Of a DNA stretch of 50,699 nt, positions 4,415-49,694 are shown piece by piece. The notes under the pieces were generated by a model. The model was given only the letters and a program-made list of their open reading frames with translations, did not search any database and was not told the DNA's origin. Made by a program: the position numbers and the translations under genes. Source of the stretch: a phage; the sequence record PZ150740.1; one strand, written 5' to 3'. Positions within the stretch are counted from its first letter, which is position 1, and the number at the start of each line of letters is the position of its first letter.

Positions 4415-4458
4415 ATTATACCTGGCCCCACATTTGAGTTTTAACAAAAAGTGCTATT
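4415..4458 (-). promoter_or_regulatory. box promoter unit (-10 TATAAT, 17-bp spacer)
   Basis: Perfect box 4438-4458; hairpin GGGCC/GGCCC around -10. Confidence 0.55.
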
Positions 4459-5405: not shown

Positions 5406-5450
5406 ATTATGCCTGGTTATCGTTTTCGAGTTTTAACAAAAAGTGCTATT
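5406..5450 (-). promoter_or_regulatory. box promoter unit (-10-like CATAAT)
   Basis: Perfect box 5430-5450; 18-bp spacer. Confidence 0.55.
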
Positions 5451-5868: not shown

Positions 5869-5913
5869 ATTATGCCAGGCTTTGCGCCTGGCGTTTTAAC
5901 AAAAAGTGCTATT
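5869..5913 (-). promoter_or_regulatory. box promoter unit (-10-like CATAAT)
   Basis: Perfect box 5893-5913; spacer is palindrome GCCAGGCgcaaaGCCTGGC. Confidence 0.55.
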
Positions 5914-6633: not shown

Positions 6634-6664
6634 TTCCTTTCCTCCAGTTGTTGACTGTTGGCGC

Positions 6665-6692
6665 ATTATAAAAGCTATTTGGTGCGTGTCAA
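6665..6692 (-). promoter_or_regulatory. near-consensus sigma70 promoter (TTGACA-16-TATAAT) for leftward early genes
   Basis: Minus strand reads TTGACAcgcaccaaatagctttTATAAT immediately upstream of gene 6169-6633. Confidence 0.6.
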
Positions 6693-7114
6693 TGTTTTTG
6701 TTGTATTCAAAACGTTACCAATATCGAAAAACTACAAAATCATGCGCAAGTTGTTGATTTCAGGGCTGTTATTTTTCTGTTCACGCTGTTAACGCAATCC
6801 GCCGGAAAAAGTATATATACATATGCAATCCGCCGCGCGCGCAACTATCCATATATACCCACACACAACCAGACCATAACCAACAAAAAGCACTGTAACA
6901 GTGAGAACAAAAAGAAAACATTATAGATATATATAAATAAATAATCTTTATTTTCAATGTATTATAGAGGGATTTTTTTGTTTTTTCCGTTTTCGCTACA
7001 CCGGAAAACCGCGCGGAAACACGCCGCCTGAAATCGGTAACAGGGGTGAACAAAAGACAACAACCACTGACAGCCAGGCGGAAAAGTGAGGCAAGAGGGG
7101 AAGGTTTCACTATC

Positions 7115-7246: not shown

Positions 7247-7291
7247 AATAGCACTTTTTGTTAAAACTCAGACCACCTGATCGGGTACATT
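7247..7291 (+). promoter_or_regulatory. box promoter unit (-10-like TACATT)
   Basis: Perfect box 7247-7267; leader ACACACATCGAAACGAA. Confidence 0.55.
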
Positions 7292-8330: not shown

Positions 8331-8374
8331 ATAGCACTTTTTGTTAAAACTCAATCCTCTCATTCCTGTACATT
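8330..8374 (+). promoter_or_regulatory. box promoter unit (-10-like TACATT)
   Basis: Perfect box; leader ACACGCATCGACAACGAA. Confidence 0.55.
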
Positions 8375-8560: not shown

Positions 8561-8837
8561 GTTTTACAGCTACACCGACACAGTGGATTTTGAGGGGATA
8601 CAATTGCCCCTCCCGAATATATACCGCTATATCACTCGTGACGAACGCGGATTTATTGAAGCCTGGCGCGCGAAGCCAGTGCGGGATCTTGAATTTGGTG
8701 GCTTCCGATCCCTTGAAGGTGAATTGCCGATCTGCTTTGGTCATCAAAGCGGTAAAAACCTTCCTGTTGTTGAGCGTCAGTATCGCCGCCACAAGATTAC
8801 AAGGCAACTTATCTCTTTAACTGGAAAAGTTGTTTAA
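8550..8837 (+). CDS. hypothetical protein (start adjusted to MSSKFYS)
   Basis: ORF track frame; stop TAA inside box 8836-8856. Confidence 0.5.
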   Translation: MSSKFYSYTDTVDFEGIQLPLPNIYRYITRDERGFIEAWRAKPVRDLEFGGFRSLEGELPICFGHQSGKNLPVVERQYRRHKITRQLISLTGKVV

Positions 8838-8880
8838 TAGCACTTTTTGTTAAAAACGATGTGCGCCTGAATGGTATATT
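8836..8880 (+). promoter_or_regulatory. box promoter unit (-10-like TATATT)
   Basis: Box with 1 mismatch; leader ACATCCATCGACAACAAA. Confidence 0.55.
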
Positions 8881-10171: not shown

Positions 10172-10756
10172 GTGCGCATACAGCATGAGAATATCGAATA
10201 CGTTAACGTCTGGATTGATGAAAGATTTTACCACCGCGCGCGCTGGGAGGAATGGGGCATTCCTGACTTTATTATGGCATTTCCACCATGCACCGACCTT
10301 GCAAATAGCGGATCTCGCCATTGGGCCAAAAAACGCCTTGAGAATCCATCGTTCCAGGATGAGGCCGCCGACACTTGCAGGATCGCGGCTGATATAGCTG
10401 ATTATTTCGGTGTTCCTTACATGATCGAAAATCCGGTTGGCAAGTTGTCAACGTTATGGCGAAAGCCTGATTATACGTTCCATCCGTGCGATTACGCTGG
10501 CTATCTGCCGGAAGATGATAAACATCCCGACTTCCCTGATATTATTCCGGCGCGGGATCGCTACTTTAAGAAAACGTGCCTCTGGACTGGCAACGGCTTT
10601 GTTATTCCTCCACGCGCTTTAATCCTGCCGAAAGAGGAAGACAAAGATAATCCAGGCTGGGCCAAAACTGGCGGCAAGTCATCGCGCACAAAGATGATCC
10701 GCTCCCTCACTCCGCGCGGATTTGCTCGCGCCGTCTTTGAGTCAAACTCAAAATAG
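10172..10756 (+). CDS. cytosine-C5 methyltransferase-like protein (catalytic core; N-terminus uncertain, frame open from 10055)
   Basis: FPPC (PC-motif-like), ENP(V)G (ENV-like), PARDRYF and GNGFV motifs in C5-MTase order; no ATG for motif-I region. Confidence 0.4.
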   Translation: MRIQHENIEYVNVWIDERFYHRARWEEWGIPDFIMAFPPCTDLANSGSRHWAKKRLENPSFQDEAADTCRIAADIADYFGVPYMIENPVGKLSTLWRKPDYTFHPCDYAGYLPEDDKHPDFPDIIPARDRYFKKTCLWTGNGFVIPPRALILPKEEDKDNPGWAKTGGKSSRTKMIRSLTPRGFARAVFESNSK

Positions 10757-10796
10757 CACTTTTTGTTAAAAGCCAGGTGTAAAAACCTGGCATAAT
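10752..10796 (+). promoter_or_regulatory. box promoter unit (-10-like CATAAT)
   Basis: Box with 1 mismatch; spacer palindrome GCCAGG-tgtaaaaa-CCTGGC. Confidence 0.55.
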
Positions 10797-10825: not shown

Positions 10826-11026
10826 ATGAATGTTATCTGTAATGAAACCAACGTATTGATGAAAGGCCGTTTTAAAACGGTTTATCAGAAGATTGCAGGA
10901 AGTAATGATGTGATCGAGGTGGAAGAATTCAGGTTAAGACGCTTGTTAAGGGTAGCCGCTGGCTTCCAGCAAACCGAGATGATTACCGCGCCATTAACAC
11001 AAAAACCGTTCTTTGCACGTTTGTAG
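10826..11026 (+). CDS. hypothetical protein
   Basis: ORF track; box unit 10752-10796 upstream. Confidence 0.5.
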   Translation: MNVICNETNVLMKGRFKTVYQKIAGSNDVIEVEEFRLRRLLRVAAGFQQTEMITAPLTQKPFFARL

Positions 11027-11211: not shown

Positions 11212-11429
11212 TAAACAGTGAAAACCGTTACAAAGTAACGCATTCTACCACAAAGACTTTCAAGCCTGGCGATATAGTCAGGCCCATCAAAAAAACGGCG
11301 GTAGGTTGGCTGATTGGTTTTTCATATCATAAGGCGCTTTACTTTACGTTTAAGGATGGGATTACAGGAGAATGCTACAGCGACCGCCAGCCTGATCGAC
11401 TTCTGGTTGCAATAGAGCGGATCAAATAG
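11208..11429 (+). CDS. hypothetical protein
   Basis: ORF track; stop TAG inside box 11425-11445. Confidence 0.45.
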   Translation: MINSENRYKVTHSTTKTFKPGDIVRPIKKTAVGWLIGFSYHKALYFTFKDGITGECYSDRQPDRLLVAIERIK

Positions 11430-11469
11430 CACTTTTTGACAAAACGGGGTAGTATTGGGCCGTTAAAAT
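11425..11469 (+). promoter_or_regulatory. box promoter unit variant (TTGACA inside box; -10-like TAAAAT)
   Basis: AATAGCACTTTTTGACAAAAC; hairpin GGGCCG/CGGCCC overlaps -10. Confidence 0.5.
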
Positions 11470-13586: not shown

Positions 13587-13631
13587 AATAGCATTTTTTG
13601 TTAAAACGCCCGGCCTAGTGTCGGGTATATT
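13587..13631 (+). promoter_or_regulatory. box promoter unit (-10-like TATATT)
   Basis: Box with 1 mismatch; 40-bp near-identity to unit at 16802-16846 on the opposite strand. Confidence 0.55.
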
Positions 13632-13898: not shown

Positions 13899-13926
13899 AG
13901 GAGGCATTAAGCCTCCTTTTTCTTTT
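13899..13926. terminator. rho-independent terminator (plus strand), overlapping 3' end of spanin gene
   Basis: AGGAGGC-attaa-GCCTCCT followed by TTTTTCTTTT. Confidence 0.5.
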
Positions 13927-14302
13927 CTCTCCAGTAAAGACAAATCAGCACAATTAACACAACCACGCATATGATTACTGGATCGTACCATCTGCCGTTA
14001 TTACCCTGCACGACCTGAATTTTGTCTGCCTTGATGGTATTGGCCTGAATGGTTGATGTTGTGAAATCCTTCTTGCTGGACGTGTCCACCTTGTCAACCG
14101 CAGATTCCTTTATTGTGGTTTCCTGTTTTGTGCTGGCGTCCTGCTTTGCTGTAATGCCAACTGTCTGCTTCACGTTCTCCGCGCCAGCCTGTGCTGTGAT
14201 TTCCGGCTTACTGCCGATTAATCCGGTCAGTGGCGTAACGCTTGAACATCCAGACAAGATCACCGCCATTGCGATTGGTGTAAGTAAAAATTTCTTCATC
14301 AT
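13907..14302 (-). CDS. unimolecular spanin (u-spanin)
   Basis: N-terminal lipoprotein signal (ILSGCSS) plus C-terminal TMD (VIICVVVLIVLICLYW); immediately downstream of endolysin. Confidence 0.6.
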   Translation of the reverse strand: MMKKFLLTPIAMAVILSGCSSVTPLTGLIGSKPEITAQAGAENVKQTVGITAKQDASTKQETTIKESAVDKVDTSSKKDFTTSTIQANTIKADKIQVVQGNNGRWYDPVIICVVVLIVLICLYWREKKKEA

Positions 14303-14303
14303 T

Positions 14304-14788
14304 TCAATCCATTGTGCAATATTTGTATTCGACCTTGCGCCTGTTAAGTAAGCCTTTAGACTTCTCGCGCTTTCCTGTTTTGGGGTTATGGTAATACGTC
14401 CAACGATAAAGCTGATCGCAAGCCTCGTTTAATTTCCCCTGGTTGATGAGTTTCAGCATTGTTGAATTTCTGAAAGCTCCAACTCCTGCATTATAAGTGA
14501 ATGAGTACATTGCTGCACGCATACTATCAGGAATGTCAACCTTAACTTGCTTGTCAACTTCTTTTTTAGCAACCTGGATATGTTTAGCCAACAAAGCATC
14601 ACACTCTTTTTAGTGTACGTTTTCCCCAGGATAACATCTGGTCCGGTTATTCCTGCGCAAACAGTCCATACTCCCGCAATATCTTTGTATGGCTTGTATC
14701 TTACCCCTTCGATCTCTTCAAGAAGTGGAGAAGTCAAGGCAACCGCAACGCCAAAGGCCGCAGCCGCTACCTTGTTCTTTATGCTCAT
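14304..14788 (-). CDS. SAR endolysin (lysozyme), reading frame interrupted by 1-nt frameshift near 14600-14612
   Basis: Two track ORFs in different frames; N-part has SAR-like TMD and [19 protein letters not shown]-part [17 protein letters not shown]; resembles P21-type lysozyme as recalled. Confidence 0.6.
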
Positions 14789-15003
14789 TACTTGCCCCTG
14801 ATTTCAATAGCTTTTTGAATATCACCTTTTTCGATCGCCTCGTGGAATTTTTTACTATCACGCCAGCGAAGGTAAGCGCCCCATGCACCGAATGCAGCCA
14901 TTAAAACAAAGCTGGCAATAGCAATGGTTAACTGCCCTGTAGCTGCGCTTGCGATAGATGAACCGCCAGATCCGGCGGTAGCTGCGTTAATAAAATCTTT
15001 CAT
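14788..15003 (-). CDS. holin (pinholin-like)
   Basis: 71 aa, two hydrophobic segments, Gly/Ala/Ser-rich first TMD; directly upstream of endolysin. Confidence 0.55.
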
Positions 15004-15147
15004 TTTTATTCTCCATATTAATTAAAGTCAATATATTGACCGAATGATAAACTTACATGGTAAAAAATTAAACAAAAAAAGAGGCGACAAACGCCGCCCC
15101 TTTGCAAGTTTTTGATTTAATTTGTCATTGATTTAAATAAAAATTCA

Positions 15148-16265
15148 TCAATTCATCATTTCTGGATAGTGAACAAATCGCCCCACTTCTCCATGCTCTT
15201 TGTCGTAAATGATAACCGCTGCACGGCGTCGAGATCTCCAGCCACCGCGCGCGGCGTATGCGTCTTTTGCCGCCAGGGTGCTATGCACCTCAACGATGCC
15301 AAGCGACGTTTCCGTCACAGTCTGGTGATGCCAGTGCCCTACGTGCGCATACATAGTTTTTGAGTTTCCGAAGTCCTCCCGCCAATCTGACGCGCACATC
15401 ATTAGCAAAGTCTCAGGTTTGCGCACTGTGTGCCCGTGATGGTACGCAAGGAAAGTTTTTCCGTATTGCGTGTGGTGAACAACGCGAGGAGAAACATCAA
15501 CGTAAACGCGCGGCTCGTTCTCATATGCTGCCGCCATTGCTGCGCGTAGCCAAATCATTCCTGATTGGTCGTGATTCCCCTCTACTACCTGGACCTCAAC
15601 ATGTTTATGCTTTAACAGCATTTTATTAATTGCGCGGCGCACTGCACGTATTGCAACGTAAACCAATTTTGCATATCGGCTATCTTGATCAAGTACGTGA
15701 CCGCTTGCAGGTGTCACCGCCTCCAGGCCGTCGCTATGCAGCATATCGCCACCAATCAGGATAACAGCCTTTTCGCTGTCCGGTGCGCACATCAAAGCAT
15801 AGTCGATAAAGTTATTCATAACGCGCTCTGCCGTCGCAGTATCCCAATTTTCGCCGCATTCGTGCTTATGGGCCATAGCGCCTAAGTGCATGTCAAAGAT
15901 CGGATACAATGAAAGCGTTTCATTATAGTTACGCTCCTGCAATGGAACTGGATCTAATCGCGGCACTTCCTCGCTAAATGCCTCCATTGCTGCGCGCATC
16001 AATGCCTCTAATTGCTCTTTATCCTTGCTGGTTTTTGTCCACTTGAGGATTATGTTGCCTTCTTTGTCAGTCATTACTGACTCACCATGAACACCAAAAC
16101 CAGGCGCTCCAATGGTCGATAACTGTCCTTGCTTTGCAAGACGCGCCGCGCGACGCTCGACGCTTCTCACATTCATTCCGTACTCTTGAGCGATCTGTTT
16201 ATATGTCTTACCTGCCGCCCGTTCGATCTTGAGTTGCTCATCTGTAATTTTTACATTTTTCATTC
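15148..16265 (-). CDS. calcineurin-like metallophosphoesterase with N-terminal HTH-like domain
   Basis: Motifs GGDMLHSDG, EGNHD, HHGH; N-terminal segment YKQIAQEYGMNVRSVERRAARL; start adjusted to MKNVKI. Confidence 0.6.
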
Positions 16266-16357: not shown

Positions 16358-16600
16358 TCATTTATAATATTTGCGAGGCTCTCGGATTTTAGCCATTGCC
16401 TCTTTGAAATCAATTTTTGTTGGAACTGCTGGAACTCTCACCATTTTTCGCGGCCTTTCCTTGAGGAAAGTCATCTTATCGCCGCTAATTATGCTCACAT
16501 CTGCAATATCAAAGTATTGCGCGATCTTCTTTATATCGTCGGCTATTCCGCATTCTTTAGCGTGATTCCATACCGCATCTCTACCTTGCTCAACCTTCAT
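16358..16600 (-). CDS. hypothetical protein (start adjusted to MKVEQGR)
   Basis: ORF track frame. Confidence 0.45.
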   Translation of the reverse strand: MKVEQGRDAVWNHAKECGIADDIKKIAQYFDIADVSIISGDKMTFLKERPRKMVRVPAVPTKIDFKEAMAKIREPRKYYK

Positions 16601-16801: not shown

Positions 16802-16846
16802 ATTATGCCCGACACTAGGCCGGGCGTTTTAACAAAAAATGCTATT
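16802..16846 (-). promoter_or_regulatory. box promoter unit (-10-like CATAAT)
   Basis: Box with 1 mismatch; near-identical to unit at 13587-13631. Confidence 0.55.
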
Positions 16847-17871: not shown

Positions 17872-17916
17872 ATTATGGCGCAATCCATCGCGCCAGTTTT
17901 AACAAAAAGTGCTATT
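17872..17916 (-). promoter_or_regulatory. box promoter unit upstream of Dam gene (-10-like CATAAT)
   Basis: Perfect box 17896-17916; spacer hairpin GGCGC/GCGCC. Confidence 0.55.
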
Positions 17917-20357: not shown

Positions 20358-20402
20358 ATAATAGACTCATTACAATAAACTGTTTTAACAAAAAATGCTA
20401 TG
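20358..20402 (-). promoter_or_regulatory. box promoter unit upstream of helicase (-10-like TATTAT), overlapping divergent plus-strand TATAAT
   Basis: Box with 2 mismatches; plus-strand TATAAT at 20357-20362 for gene 20413. Confidence 0.5.
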
Positions 20403-26927: not shown

Positions 26928-26957
26928 CTTTAATGCTCCTGGTTGCTTTGTGTGTGC

Positions 26958-26985
26958 ATTGTAGCCATTTGGTTGATTTAGTCAA
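26958..26985 (-). promoter_or_regulatory. near-consensus sigma70 promoter (TTGACT-16-TACAAT) for recombination genes
   Basis: Minus strand reads TTGACTaaatcaaccaaatggcTACAAT; spacer resembles promoter at 6665-6692. Confidence 0.55.
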
Positions 26986-27353
26986 TAGTTGTTTTGTTTT
27001 TTCTGTTTTCTAAACGTTCTCAGATGGCAATAAAACAAATTTGACGCGTAAGTTAATGATTAATATGTGTTATTTTTCTTGTTCCCTTGTTCTCTCAGAT
27101 ACGCCGGATTATATACATACACATGAATGATGGCACATACAGATACTCAGAAAGAAAAATCACCACAAACAACCAAAACCACAAGAAACACAGATAACAA
27201 GAAAAAACAAATATACATACATAAATAAATAAACTATTGATTTTATATGTATATATCTATTTTGTTGATTATTTATTGTTCTTATGTTGGCTAAAATTTG
27301 CGCTAAATTTACGCCGTCTTAAATCCGATAACACCGGAAAACAAAAAATAACA

Positions 27354-38122: not shown

Positions 38123-38145
38123 CTCAAGATCTCCTTATAGCACTT

Positions 38146-38190
38146 TTTGTTAAAAGTGGAATTAATTTATTTGATAGATTGATTTTACAG
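38146..38190 (+). promoter_or_regulatory. orphan box copy, antisense to tail operon
   Basis: TATAGCACTTTTTGTTAAAAG + 18 bp + TAGATT on plus strand; its complement abuts RBS of G gene. Confidence 0.4.
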
Positions 38191-41889: not shown

Positions 41890-41910
41890 GATAGCACTTT
41901 TTGTTAAACG
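41890..41910 (+). promoter_or_regulatory. orphan box copy, antisense to head operon
   Basis: GATAGCACTTTTTGTTAAACG; no good -10 at fixed spacing. Confidence 0.35.
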
Positions 41911-46466: not shown

Positions 46467-46530
46467 ATCTCCATAATAAAAAAGGCTGGAAAAATCCAGC
46501 CTTGATTATATAACTTTTTAGCAATTAGTG

Positions 46531-48099
46531 CTATTTATTGCGTAGACCAGCCAGCTTTTTCATCCTTGCCACCGGATCATCTGCCAAATTCATTTCGACG
46601 TTAACAGCATCAACTATATTATCGACAATATCATCATGGGGATGAGAATCATCAAAAGTGAATGCTGCAACCTCTGCCAGTATCTCAGGCAGCATGGGGT
46701 GATTTTCTGGCAGTGCCACACGTCCGGCCCTCATCACTGGCGCGGCGTCCATTGCTCGCGTTACCTTGTCATTGCTTCGCTGAACGGGATTTATATCAAT
46801 CTGGATCTTCTTTTTGGCCCCCTGAATCAAACCCGTGCCGCTGGCCTTATCCTCAATGTGGATACGTCGCAAGCTGCCACACTCCTTATTGCGCTTCCAG
46901 CACTGATTAACGAAGGCAATAAAATTTAATTCAAGATCCGGCGCTTCCCACTTTCCGCGAATGCCATCAATGAAGTAAACGCGATTCTTATACATCCCCC
47001 AATAACAAAAAACTGAATAGTCGTTAAGCTCTCCGGCCTTCTGCGCGGTATCTCCAGTAATAAATGTGTATTCAAAGCGATCCGGTTTTGGTAGTGCGCA
47101 TTTTTCGCCGCTGCCGTAATACTGGAACCACTCTGTTTTAAACACGTTCCCGCCAAGCGCGATTGGTTGCTGTTGGTATTGGCTGGCGAACGTGTAAGGA
47201 TCTGCATTGCGCAATGCAAGCAATTCCTCCGCGCTTTCCTTTGCAGGCCAAAATGAATAATGAGCAACGCCATCTATCATAACTGGCTTACTTGACAGCA
47301 CATCACGATCAAATTCAGGCTTCAACCAATCAGGAAGCGTCTCGCGGTATTCTTTCGTAACCAGCGCCGGAATGCTCACAACTTTAAACTCGATACCACC
47401 CATCCCGCCATTAAGCATAAACCAGGTGGAATCATTAACGTGTAGTCGCTGTTGCACCATAACAATCGGCGTGGTGTCTTTCATTCGACGCGATCGCACT
47501 GTGTTTTTTAACCGCATGTGGATAGCCTCACGCTTTACCTTAGAAAGCATATCATCCGGCTTGTCTGGATCGTCAAGAACCAGCATACCAGTAAAACCAT
47601 CGTCCATATAGCCGCCACGCAAACCTGTTACCTGGCCGCCAATAGAACGTGAGTTAACTTGCAATTTAACCTTGCCGCCTTCGGTGACTATCAGATCTTT
47701 AGCGCTCGCCTTTGCCAGTTTTCCTGGCCATAGCTCTTGCCACTCAGGAGAACCAATAATCTCCTTTATCCGGTTGCTGTTTTGCTGGACAAGGCCATCA
47801 CTAAACGAAAGGTTAAGGTTTCTCACTTTCCGGCTTTTCAATGACGCGTAGGGTGACATGTGGATCGAGAAAATCTCAGTCTTACCGCTACCTGGCGTAA
47901 TGTTGAAAATCACATTCTGCGACTCTCCATTGATGATCTTCTCTACCTCACTGCACAATAAGCTAAAATGCCAGTTGCTCTGGAATTTTTGCCCCTGCAA
48001 TAACTGGAACCAGATTCTGATCATCTTTTCGAATGAATGCTCACTGATTTCTTTAATGGCTCGCTTTTGCGCCGCCGTCAAATCTTCCCATATGATCAT
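46531..48099 (-). CDS. terminase large subunit
   Basis: Walker A-like NITPGSGKTE, Walker B MLVLDDPDK; size 522 aa. Confidence 0.85.
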   Translation of the reverse strand: MIIWEDLTAAQKRAIKEISEHSFEKMIRIWFQLLQGQKFQSNWHFSLLCSEVEKIINGESQNVIFNITPGSGKTEIFSIHMSPYASLKSRKVRNLNLSFSDGLVQQNSNRIKEIIGSPEWQELWPGKLAKASAKDLIVTEGGKVKLQVNSRSIGGQVTGLRGGYMDDGFTGMLVLDDPDKPDDMLSKVKREAIHMRLKNTVRSRRMKDTTPIVMVQQRLHVNDSTWFMLNGGMGGIEFKVVSIPALVTKEYRETLPDWLKPEFDRDVLSSKPVMIDGVAHYSFWPAKESAEELLALRNADPYTFASQYQQQPIALGGNVFKTEWFQYYGSGEKCALPKPDRFEYTFITGDTAQKAGELNDYSVFCYWGMYKNRVYFIDGIRGKWEAPDLELNFIAFVNQCWKRNKECGSLRRIHIEDKASGTGLIQGAKKKIQIDINPVQRSNDKVTRAMDAAPVMRAGRVALPENHPMLPEILAEVAAFTFDDSHPHDDIVDNIVDAVNVEMNLADDPVARMKKLAGLRNK

Positions 48100-49301: not shown

Positions 49302-49434
49302 TTTGAATCTCCATTAAAAAAGGCGATACGTCTTACGGATTATCTTGCATTGCAAAAACCTCCTGCATATCGCCGTTGCTGTGTGACTATCGCGTCACGC
49401 GTTCGGACTAAGCCGCTCTTATGTAAACGACGCC

Positions 49435-49463
49435 ATGCTAACCAATCAGGAAAGAGTTGTCAA
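49435..49463 (-). promoter_or_regulatory. sigma70-like promoter (TTGACA-17-TAGCAT) with long structured leader
   Basis: Minus strand TTGACAactctttcctgattggtTAGCAT; ~125-nt leader with inverted repeats before gene 49068-49301. Confidence 0.45.
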
Positions 49464-49694
49464 TCATTCCCTGTCGAAAGCGTTCCCCCAACGTCCGCGC
49501 AAGTAACCACATAGCCAAATGAATTGAGTGATCGTCAACATTGGCGCGATTGGCTGGTAGTGTTCTGCAATGATGCCCTTCATTACTTCATCAACATACT
49601 TCCCGCGCTTTTCCACATCCGCTTTCATCGCCTCGCCGCACTTTTTAGCCTGGCGTTTAGCTGCGTTGAATTGCGCCTCATTCATTCCAAACAT
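49464..49694 (-). CDS. hypothetical protein
   Basis: ORF track. Confidence 0.5.
   Translation of the reverse strand: MFGMNEAQFNAAKRQAKKCGEAMKADVEKRGKYVDEVMKGIIAEHYQPIAPMLTITQFIWLCGYLRGRWGNAFDRE

What the first reader, a model, noticed from the sequence alone, without database searches (positions are those of the whole stretch)
15027..15040. Perfect 14-bp palindrome immediately upstream of the holin gene
GTCAATATATTGAC is perfectly self-complementary and lies about 25 bp upstream of the holin start, between the terminator-like hairpin after the phosphoesterase gene and the lysis-gene RBS. This is a plausible operator for a dimeric regulator or a late-promoter element controlling lysis timing.
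Basis: seen in the sequence. Interest (0 to 1): 0.35.

Follow-up and report, generated by a model that had tools for sequence, protein, structure and literature searches.

The report
Chance palindrome in holin promoter region
The 14-bp palindrome is really there, but it looks like a lineage-specific accident where two separately conserved pieces of an ordinary promoter/leader in front of a T1-like phage's lysis genes happen to abut, not a repressor binding site.

Summary
The window is a T1-like coliphage (Drexlerviridae, Warwickvirus; 98% identical to JLBYU16 and tiwna). GTCAATATATTGAC sits at 15027-15040. It lies on the minus-strand lysis cassette, between the terminator after the phosphoesterase gene and the holin RBS, 23 nt before the holin ATG.

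A perfect palindrome of 14 bp or more is not unusual. The window has 3, against 4.05 in shuffles. For this AT-rich spacer alone, P is about 0.03.

No other copy exists in the window. The exact palindrome occurs only in the holin clade that is at least 99% identical (9 of 157 loci). Three phages of the same genus carry GTTAATATATTGAC. Fifteen of 16 other clusters show no excess dyad symmetry.

Two pieces are conserved separately:
- **-10 box and start site:** a TAnnAT -10 box occurs in 24 of 25 clusters, followed 7 nt later by an A in 22 of 25. This predicts a transcription start near 15037, inside the left arm.
- **TTGAC(A/T):** this is the right arm, identical to a sigma-70 -35 hexamer, and is present in 15 of 25 clusters.

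I found no conserved RNA structure, no Rfam hit and no regulon. I conclude this is an ordinary promoter/leader region and that the operator reading is unsupported. The role of the TTGAC box remains open.

The parts
15148..16263 (-). Upstream gene: phosphoesterase / 'DNA repair exonuclease' with an N-terminal HTH. The mechanical ORF extends to a TTG at 16413; relatives annotate the 371-aa form starting MKNVK.
   Evidence: ORF list. Weak, sub-threshold Pfam hits to Sigma70_r4_2, HTH_28 and Metallophos. Annotated phosphoesterase or DNA repair exonuclease in relatives.
15078..15103 (-). Intrinsic-terminator-like hairpin (11 pairs, 6 G-C) followed by the T-tract 15077..15068.
   Evidence: An equivalent hairpin plus T-tract lies upstream of the holin in the representative of each of the 25 relative clusters, although its sequence differs. 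It is annotated as a rho-independent terminator in the T1 and G29-2 records.
15067..15072 (-). Weak -35-like hexamer TTTAAT of putative promoter P1, 17 nt upstream of the -10.
   Evidence: Approximate sigma-70 matrix scan: TTTAAT-17-TATCAT scores 7.8 bits. This is an inference only; the -35 is poorly conserved across clades.
15044..15049 (-). -10 hexamer TATCAT of putative promoter P1. It is TATTAT in PeterMerian, FritzSarasin and mar001J1, and (G)GTTAnnAT in other clades.
   Evidence: A TAnnAT hexamer lies 32-50 nt before the holin ATG in 24 of 25 cluster representatives.
15037..15037 (-). Predicted transcription start (A, the 7th nt after the -10, preceded by a pyrimidine). This is position 4 of the palindrome.
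   Evidence: A occupies the 7th nt after the -10 in 22 of 25 clusters, preceded by C or T. The C->T change at 15038 in three congeners keeps a pyrimidine at -1. Inferred; no TSS data exist.
15027..15040 (.). The 14-bp perfect palindrome GTCAATATATTGAC, which spans -3..+11 of putative P1.
15026..15031 (-). Conserved TTGACT box, which forms the right arm of the palindrome. It is identical to the sigma-70 -35 consensus at 5 of 6 positions and lies 22 nt before the ATG and 11-12 nt before the SD.
   Evidence: TTGAC is present in 15 of 25 clusters (TTNAC in 19 of 25). It carries close to the 2-bit maximum of information per position, while flanking positions carry much less. The promoter scan reports TTGACT-18-AAAAAT.
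15011..15014 (-). Shine-Dalgarno GGAG of the holin gene.
   Evidence: Sequence. It is conserved as GGAG or GAGG (+GATC) in relatives.
14788..15003 (-). Holin gene (71 aa, MKDFINAA...), a homologue of the T1 gp13 pinholin.
14304..14788 (-). SAR-endolysin gene, split into two ORFs by a 1-nt deletion near 14611.
   Evidence: Pfam Phage_lysozyme positions 2-40 fall on ORF 14788..14453 and positions 43-125 on ORF 14594..14304. Indels were located against three close relatives.
13907..14302 (-). Spanin gene (unimolecular or Rz-like), the last gene of the lysis cassette.
   Evidence: annotation in relatives.

Best explanation
The palindrome is not a functional unit. It is a lineage-specific juxtaposition of two separately conserved parts of the holin leader of T1-like phages.

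(1) The left arm, GTCA, is the -3..+1 region of a host-sigma-70-type promoter, P1. P1 has a -10 of TATCAT (15049..15044), a weak -35 of TTTAAT, and an A/T-rich T-tract upstream. It restarts transcription of the holin-endolysin-spanin cassette just after the terminator that ends the phosphoesterase operon. The predicted start is A15037, giving a 34-nt AU-rich leader.

(2) The right arm is a conserved TTGAC(A/T) box.

In this Warwickvirus lineage the two parts are only 6 nt apart, and the AT-rich filler (ATATAT) happens to be self-complementary. This yields a perfect 14-mer.

What the TTGAC box does is not settled. My ranking is:
- A sigma-70 region-4 (-35-type) contact of a second, overlapping promoter-like site, TTGACT-N18-AAAAAT, whose -10 uses the AT of the start codon: about 35%.
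- A single-stranded leader or translation-enhancer motif: about 30%.
- A half-site for a protein: about 10%.
- No function, or some other function: about 25%.

Shown: the positions, the conservation pattern, and the lack of conserved dyad symmetry or RNA structure. Inferred: promoter activity, the start site, and the role of TTGAC.
For: - Identity and context: the window is a T1-like phage with lysis genes on the minus strand.
- The exact palindrome occurs in only 9 of 157 fetched loci, all in the clade at 99% or more holin identity.
- PeterMerian, FritzSarasin and mar001J1 are the same genus and about 97% identical overall. They carry GTTAATATATTGAC with no compensating change in the other arm, and they are viable isolates.
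- Across 149 relatives (83 distinct upstream regions, 25 clusters), TAnnAT is present in 24 of 25 clusters, with A at the 7th downstream nt in 22 of 25.
- TTGAC is the only strongly conserved block between the -10 and the SD.
- The spacing between the -10 and TTGAC varies from 10 to 21 nt, so the two arms move independently.
- Outside the window's own cluster, 15 of the other 16 TTNAC-bearing cluster representatives have no more dyad symmetry than shuffles.
- The one exception, the Hanrivervirus cluster, has a different palindrome (CAATTAATTG, or AACAATTAATTGTT in one variant), and its outer positions vary among close relatives.
- There is no second copy in the genome.
- The count of palindromes of 14 bp or more is at the chance level.
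- The three canonical sigma-70 promoters of this phage also read ATTGAC at -35.
- PWM scans put TTGACW-N16-18-xAxxAT on top in most TTGAC clades.
Against: - No transcription-start data exist for any Drexlerviridae in the searched literature, so P1 is predicted only.
- The P1 -35 is weak (3 of 6 positions) in this clade.
- The palindrome is significant for its own 32-nt region (P = 0.003; about 0.05 after correction for 17 clusters). A second clade has an unrelated palindrome at the same place, so a weak tendency to dyad symmetry here is not excluded.
- Within the close clade the palindrome is intact in the roughly 58 of 61 GenBank relatives that differ by at most one base over 15004-15048, while the flanks carry SNPs. 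I read the sequence itself in only 9 loci. The tree is too short for this to be strong evidence either way.
- A clade-specific regulator cannot be ruled out by comparative data alone.
Confidence: 0.62

Rival explanations
1. Operator: the dyad is bound by a dimeric HTH regulator, phage- or host-encoded. The regulator sits over the start site and represses lysis-gene transcription until late in infection.
For: - The sequence has perfect dyad symmetry and overlaps the predicted start site, a classical repressor position.
- The palindrome is locally unusual (P = 0.003 in its 32-nt region).
- Palindromes are otherwise depleted in this genome.
- The palindrome appears intact in most close relatives.
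Against: - Half-site symmetry is not conserved. It is broken in three congeners without compensation.
- The left arm is absent or displaced in all more distant relatives, with arm spacings of 4, 7, 8 and 12-14 nt where a partner exists.
- There are no other copies in the genome.
- No cognate regulator was identified.
- The genome-wide count of such palindromes is at chance.
Confidence: 0.06
2. Second promoter P2: TTGACT (15031..15026) is a true -35, and the -10 is AAAAAT or TAAAAA overlapping the holin ATG. RNA polymerase would start a few nucleotides inside the holin ORF. This would either make holin-less endolysin/spanin transcripts or compete with P1 by promoter occlusion, and so tune the holin:endolysin ratio and lysis timing. 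Under this reading the palindrome itself is irrelevant.
For: - P2 is the best sigma-70 match in the region for the window (9.9 bits) and for most TTGAC-bearing clades, with spacers of 16-18.
- TTGAC is the most conserved block, and it carries the same ATTGAC form as the phage's three canonical promoters.
- The natural variants TTTACT and TTAACA are still -35-like.
Against: - The -10 is supplied by the start codon and an A-rich RBS spacer, and it lacks T-12 or T-7.
- The spacer drifts to 19-20 nt in PeterMerian and FritzSarasin, and in L014, L029 and L042.
- A-11 is missing in the L066, L140, L141 and L042 clades.
- A start inside the ORF has no obvious product.
- Clades with TTAACT 18 nt from the ATG have no usable -10.
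Confidence: 0.2
3. Leader RNA element: UUGAC(U/A), together with the U/A-rich tract after it, acts in the mRNA. It could be a translational enhancer like the T7 gene-10 epsilon sequence UUAACUUUA (the window has UUGACUUUA). Alternatively, the full palindrome forms a hairpin in read-through transcripts, by analogy with the lambda S sdi structure.
For: - The box lies in the predicted 5' UTR, 10-14 nt before the SD, and tolerates spacing changes on both sides.
- UUGAC and UUAAC variants occur in 18 of 25 clusters (15 TTGAC, 3 TTAAC), and L075 and L101 carry TTAACTTTG next to the SD.
- An 'inverted repeat upstream' of the TLS holin has been remarked on in the literature (PMC11447400).
- The similarity to epsilon rests on my own knowledge and was not tested here.
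Against: - RNAalifold finds no conserved pairing in the leader.
- The hairpin is weak: -2.1 kcal/mol for the 14-mer alone and -4.3 with one further G-C pair from the flanks. Its left arm lies upstream of the predicted start, so it would not be in the P1 transcript.
- The P1 leader folds no better than shuffles (z = -0.43).
- TTGACA clades lack the UUUA part.
- There is no dual-start motif in this holin (single Met).
- There is no Rfam family match.
Confidence: 0.2

Closest known systems
E. coli sigma-70 promoter (-35 TTGACA / -10 TATAAT) within the 'transcripton' layout described for phage T1, i.e. modules flanked by rho-independent terminators (as summarised in PMC11447400)
   Same: A terminator is followed immediately by a TAnnAT -10, with an A start 7 nt downstream and a TTGAC(A/T) hexamer. 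The phage has no RNA polymerase or sigma gene reported (TLS paper), so host holoenzyme is expected.
   Different: The conserved TTGAC lies downstream of the conserved -10, not 17 nt upstream of it. The -35 that belongs to that -10 is weak. No promoter is annotated here in the T1 records, and none has been mapped experimentally.
Lambda-type operators (OR/OL) bound by dimeric repressors
   Same: A short dyad-symmetric sequence overlaps a promoter or start site upstream of regulated genes.
   Different: Lambda operators occur in several copies, are conserved as dyads and have a cognate repressor gene. Here there is a single copy, the dyad is not conserved, and no repressor is known in these virulent phages.
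Lambda S gene sdi stem-loop with a dual-start holin/antiholin, and the 'inverted repeat upstream' noted for the TLS holin (PMC11447400)
   Same: An inverted repeat lies just upstream of a holin start codon.
   Different: This holin has one start codon (MKDF...). The hairpin is weak, its left arm is probably not transcribed from P1, and no covariation was found.
T7 gene 10 leader epsilon translational enhancer (UUAACUUUA); own knowledge
   Same: UUGACUUUA in the window leader differs from it at one position. It lies upstream of a strong SD in an AU-rich phage leader.
   Different: It lies 12 nt from the SD rather than 3-4 nt. Many relatives have UUGACA without the UUUA. No functional test was done.
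T1-family direct repeat aaATAGCACnnnTTGnTAAAA (TLS paper, PMC11447400)
   Same: It is a repeated cis element of the same phage family and contains a TTG(TT/AC)AAAA part. One window copy reads TTGACAAAAC (11426-11443).
   Different: The holin leader lacks the ATAGCAC half and the fixed 21-22-nt distance to a -10. It is not a member of this repeat family.

Membership tests
Operator of a dimeric DNA-binding regulator | Dyad-symmetric site | tested here: met
   Perfect 7+7 palindrome at 15027-15040.
Operator of a dimeric DNA-binding regulator | Both half-sites and their spacing are conserved in relatives that keep the regulated gene | tested here: not met
   The exact dyad occurs only in near-identical genomes. 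It is broken by C->T in three congeners. 15 of 16 other clusters show no excess symmetry, and arm spacing varies from 4 to 14 nt where a partner exists.
Operator of a dimeric DNA-binding regulator | Further copies at other regulated promoters, or a cognate regulator gene nearby | tested here: not met
   No copy with 2 or fewer mismatches exists elsewhere in the window. GTCAA-N0-14-TTGAC occurs 3 times against 0.98 expected, and the other two copies are not at gene starts. No regulator was identified; the neighbouring HTH-phosphoesterase has only sub-threshold HTH hits.
Sigma-70 promoter (P1, upstream of the palindrome) | A -10 hexamer with A-11 and T-7, conserved in relatives, and a purine start about 7 nt downstream | tested here: met
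   TAnnAT is present in 24 of 25 clusters. A occupies the 7th nt in 22 of 25, preceded by a pyrimidine.
Sigma-70 promoter (P1, upstream of the palindrome) | A -35 hexamer 16-18 nt upstream | tested here: inconclusive
   TTTAAT (3 of 6 positions) sits at 17 nt in the window. The -35 is good in the T1, L040 and L147 clades and poor in most Tempevirinae.
Sigma-70 promoter (P1, upstream of the palindrome) | Transcripts actually start there | not testable with these tools
   No TSS data for Drexlerviridae were found. The T1 records annotate no promoter here.
Sigma-70 promoter (P2, TTGACT as -35) | A consensus -35 plus a -10 at 16-18 nt, maintained in relatives | tested here: inconclusive
   The -35 is strongly conserved. 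The -10 is made of the start codon's AT. The spacer is 16-18 nt in most clades but 19-20 nt in PeterMerian, FritzSarasin, L014, L029 and L042, and A-11 is missing in four clades.
Structured leader RNA / sdi-like hairpin | A stable stem conserved with covariation, and a dual-start holin | tested here: not met
   The hairpin energy is -2.1 kcal/mol. RNAalifold predicts no pairs in the leader. The holin has a single Met start. There is no Rfam hit.
Intrinsic terminator (element just upstream) | A G+C-rich hairpin followed by a T-run at the end of the preceding gene | tested here: met
   An 11-pair stem (6 G-C) plus TTTTTTT lies at 15103..15068. Equivalent hairpins occur in relatives and are annotated in T1 and G29-2.
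T1-family ATAGCAC direct-repeat element | ATAGCAC-N3-TTGnTAAAA with a -10-like hexamer 21-22 nt after TTGTTA | tested here: not met
   The window has 18 copies, none between 15004 and 15147.

The most novel reading that the evidence does not exclude
The conserved TTGAC(A/T) box, not the palindrome, could be a dedicated timing device of the T1-family lysis cassette. There are two versions of this idea.

(a) It could be the -35 of a promoter that fires inside the holin ORF. Such a promoter would produce holin-less endolysin/spanin transcripts, or it would occlude the true holin promoter and so set the holin:endolysin ratio.

(b) It could be the target of the sigma-70-region-4-like HTH at the N-terminus of the phosphoesterase encoded immediately upstream. 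That would couple lysis-gene expression to this protein.

Either version would be an undescribed way of regulating a pinholin/SAR-endolysin cassette.
Probability: 0.12. Interest if true: 0.45.

Novelty: new member of a known kind. Interest (0 to 1): 0.12.

Why it matters
It matters little as a palindrome, because the proposed operator for lysis timing does not hold up.

The useful by-product is a comparative map of the holin leader across Drexlerviridae: terminator, -10, start site, TTGAC box, strong SD. This map says where to look for the still-unmapped lysis promoter of T1-like phages, which are widely used in phage-defence screens such as BASEL Bas04 and Bas05.

It also shows that one 5-nt box, TTGAC, is under strong constraint for an unknown reason.

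Tried and rejected
- **Other copies of the palindrome or its half-site pairs in the window:** none beyond chance.
- **Rfam, whole window:** no family.
- **Conserved RNA structure in the leader plus early ORF:** 17 clade representatives showed no pairs in the leader. The single-sequence hairpin is weak.
- **Enrichment of an inverted-repeat partner for TTGAC:** 14 of 62 sequences against 1.6 in shuffles. I rejected this as evidence for three reasons. The 14 sequences fall into only 4 clades. In one clade the partner is the -10 box itself. TCA of the conserved start site is already complementary to TGA.
- **A motif GTAAGKTTANNAT shared with two other sites:** 5 hits against 1.66 expected at 1 or fewer mismatches, and one site appears to lie inside a long ORF. 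Not pursued.
- **Sigma-dependent pause / lambda PR'-like layout (TTGACT next to a -10-like element):** the downstream TAnnnn elements lack T-7 in most clades (inspection). Rejected.
- **Antisense promoter:** only a weak AAGTCA-17-TAAACT is present. Rejected.
- **Host-factor boxes compared from memory (FNR, CRP, RutR, IHF, Fur, ArcA):** the half-site orientation or conservation does not fit. IHF-like WATCAAnnnnTTR is perfect only in the Hanrivervirus clade. These were not tested formally.
- **Literature:** no TSS or transcriptome data for T1-like phages in the library. The T1 GenBank records give only the terminator.

Full report
**What the window is.** A 2.7-kb query around the finding is 97-98% identical to about 60 Escherichia phages: JLBYU16, tiwna, tonijn, swan01, JK16, SECphi27 and others. 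These are classified as Drexlerviridae, Tempevirinae, Warwickvirus, i.e. T1-like virulent siphophages.

The lysis cassette is on the minus strand:
- phosphoesterase / 'DNA repair exonuclease': 16263..15148 (the mechanical ORF runs from a TTG at 16413);
- a 144-nt spacer;
- holin: 15003..14788, 71 aa;
- SAR-endolysin: 14788..14304, here split by a frameshift;
- spanin: 14302..13907.

**Observation.** GTCAATATATTGAC is at 15027-15040 and is a perfect palindrome. Read on the coding (minus) strand, the spacer runs as follows:
- stop of the phosphoesterase gene;
- hairpin AAAGGGGCGGCGTTTGTCGCCTCTTT (15103..15078) plus a T-run;
- TTTAAT, then 17 nt, then TATCAT (15049..15044);
- TCG;
- GTCAATATATTGAC;
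- TTTAATTAATAT;
- GGAG (15014..15011);
- AATAAAA;
- ATG (15003).

**Is it more than chance?** No.
- The window holds 3 perfect palindromes of 14 bp or more, against 4.05 +/- 2.0 in 200 dinucleotide shuffles. 99% of shuffles have at least one.
- Palindromes of 12 bp or more are in fact depleted (6 against 15.2 +/- 3.7).
- For the 144-nt, 74% A+T spacer alone, the chance of a palindrome of 14 bp or more is 0.03. That is unremarkable given the many spacers in a 50-kb phage.
- No second copy exists with 2 or fewer mismatches.
- Half-site pairs GTCAA-N0-14-TTGAC occur 3 times against 0.98 expected. I did not examine the other two copies further.

I collected 149 holin loci from IMG/VR, metagenomes and GenBank. 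They give 83 distinct upstream regions and 25 clusters at 85% identity.
- The exact palindrome is present in 9 of 157 loci, all from the clade whose holin is at least 99% identical.
- In GenBank, 61 close relatives cover 15004-15048. Most differ by one base. In the sequences I read, that base is at 15043, outside the palindrome.
- Three congeneric, viable isolates (PeterMerian, FritzSarasin, mar001J1; about 97% identical overall) carry GTTAATATATTGAC. This is C->T at 15038, with no compensating change in the other arm. They also carry a better -10 (TATTAT) and small indels near the SD.
- Beyond the genus (58-80% holin identity) the left arm is gone. Examples are ...ATTAACTGACCTATTGAC......ATTCACTTATCTATTGAC... 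and ...GCAATCATCACTATTGAC....
- Of 17 TTNAC-bearing cluster representatives, 15 have no more dyad symmetry in the 32 nt ending at the box than shuffles (P 0.1-1.0). The window cluster has P = 0.003.
- The Hanrivervirus cluster has an unrelated palindrome, CAATTAATTG. One variant reads AACAATTAATTGTT, a perfect 14-mer. Its outer positions vary among near-identical genomes.

Dyad symmetry is therefore not a conserved property of this position.

**What is conserved.** Two things are, and they move independently.

(i) A TAnnAT hexamer, usually in the form (G)GTTAnnAT, lies 32-50 nt before the ATG in 24 of 25 clusters. This includes T1 itself and the Klebsiella phages. The 7th nucleotide after it is A in 22 of 25 clusters, preceded by C or T. 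This is the canonical geometry of a sigma-70 -10 box and its start site. In the window it puts +1 at A15037, the fourth base of the palindrome. The natural C15038T change keeps a pyrimidine at -1. That fits the promoter reading and not the dyad reading.

(ii) TTGAC(A/T), the right arm, is present in 15 of 25 clusters. Four more carry TTTAC or TTAAC. It is the only block between the -10 and the SD with close to the maximum information per position.

The distance from the -10 to TTGAC ranges from 10 to 21 nt. The distance from TTGAC to the ATG is 21-25 nt, mostly 23. In the window lineage the two elements are only 6 nt apart, and the filler ATATAT is self-complementary. TCA at the start site and TGA within TTGAC are already complementary, so only two further matches are needed to give GTCAA...TTGAC. 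That is how a perfect 14-mer can arise without selection for it.

**What TTGAC does.** This is not resolved.

In favour of a -35 role:
- It matches the sigma-70 -35 consensus.
- It carries the same ATTGAC form as the three canonical promoters of this genome, at 6687, 26980 and 49458.
- With an approximate sigma-70 matrix, the top hit in the window (9.9 bits) and in most TTGAC clades is TTGACW-N16-18-xAxxAT, in which the final AT belongs to the holin ATG.

Against a -10 that is maintained for its own sake:
- The spacer drifts to 19-20 nt in PeterMerian and FritzSarasin and in clusters L014, L029 and L042.
- A-11 is missing in four clades.
- The start would fall inside the holin ORF.

An RNA-level role remains possible. 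The box sits in the predicted 34-nt leader and tolerates spacing changes on both sides. In the window it reads UUGACUUUA, one base from the T7 gene-10 epsilon enhancer (own knowledge). However:
- RNAalifold finds no conserved pairing.
- The palindrome hairpin is only -2.1 kcal/mol for the 14-mer (-4.3 with one further G-C pair from the flanks), and its left arm precedes the predicted start.
- The leader folds no better than shuffles.
- Rfam has nothing.

**Comparison with what is known.**
- The layout (terminator, then promoter, then genes, then terminator) is the 'transcripton' organisation proposed for T1, as summarised in the TLS paper. That paper also remarks on an inverted repeat upstream of the TLS holin in the context of a possible dual start (PMC11447400). 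This holin has a single start.
- The T1 GenBank records annotate the terminator upstream of the holin but no promoter.
- I found no transcription-start data for any Drexlerviridae.
- As an operator, the site meets the dyad criterion. It fails on conservation, copy number and cognate regulator.
- As a sigma-70 promoter region, it meets the -10 and start-site criteria. The -35 is inconclusive.

**Verdict.** The operator interpretation is not supported, and the 'promoter element' alternative is roughly right. The palindrome is best seen as a lineage-specific by-product inside an ordinary promoter/leader region. Interest is low. The one open point worth an experiment is the strongly conserved TTGAC box.

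Noticed in passing
window, 18 copies. Plus strand: 7248-7265, 8331-8348, 8837-8854, 10753-10770, 11426-11443, 13588-13605, 38137-38154, 41891-41908. Minus strand: 46517-46534, 20384-20401, 17898-17915, 16828-16845, 5895-5912, 5432-5449, 4440-4457, 2645-2662, 1325-1342, 31-48.: The T1-family direct repeat AATAGCAC(T)TTTTTGTTAAAAC is described for TLS as being of unknown function: stoperator, enhancer or UP-like (PMC11447400). In 16 of the 18 copies here it is followed by a -10-like hexamer (YATAAT, TACATT, TATATT, TATAGT or TAAAAT) at a fixed 21-22 nt after TTGTTA. A G+C-rich inverted repeat often fills that spacer, and a CATCGAAACGA-like box often follows. This looks like the main promoter class of the phage: an upstream element plus a -10, with no canonical -35. 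The 'terminator-like' hit at 16825..16807 is one of these spacer hairpins.
   Followed up: partly
window 14304-14788 (minus strand); indels near 14611 and 14306: The SAR-endolysin gene is split into two ORFs, carrying Pfam Phage_lysozyme positions 2-40 and 43-125. The cause is a 1-nt deletion relative to three close relatives, in a T/A homopolymer run near 14611. A second 1-nt deletion near 14306 changes the C-terminus. This is either a homopolymer sequencing error or a genuine lysis-defective variant. The T-run after the terminator is also one T shorter than in relatives.
   Followed up: partly
window 6651-6693 (-), 26950-26986 (-), 49430-49464 (-): There are three near-consensus sigma-70 promoters, all with ATTGAC at -35: ATTGACA-17-TATAAT, ATTGACT-17-TACAAT and ATTGACA-17-TAGCAT. 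[quoted passage not shown] They are probably the early promoters.
   Followed up: no
window 10867-10880 and 47203-47218; whole window: Two other perfect palindromes are present: CCGTTTTAAAACGG (14 bp) and TGCATTGCGCAATGCA (16 bp). Overall, palindromes of 12 bp or more are depleted (6 against 15.2 +/- 3.7 in shuffles), as expected for restriction-site avoidance.
   Followed up: no
window 16140-16263 (minus strand), N-terminus of the phosphoesterase: The protein encoded just upstream of the terminator has an N-terminal HTH. It gives weak, sub-threshold Pfam hits to Sigma70_r4_2 and HTH_28, fused to a metallophosphoesterase (SbcD/Mre11-like) domain. Some GenBank relatives annotate it as 'Sigma70_r4_2 domain-containing' or 'transcriptional regulator'. 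I did not test whether this HTH could recognise the -35-like TTGAC box next door.
   Followed up: no
L018 (and 3 identical loci) about 1455-1470; L015, L016 and L021 at the same position: Hanrivervirus relatives carry a different palindrome at the equivalent place, between the predicted start site and TTGAC. The core is CAATTAATTG, which becomes the perfect 14-mer AACAATTAATTGTT in L018. In L015 it also matches the IHF consensus WATCAAnnnnTTR.
   Followed up: partly
relatives' holin RBS (e.g. L015, L035, L066, L075), 5-12 nt before the ATG: Most relatives have an extended Shine-Dalgarno, GGAGATC, GAGGATC or GGTGGATC. This is complementary to more of the 16S 3' end and incidentally creates a GATC Dam site. 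The window clade has GGAGAAT instead.
   Followed up: no
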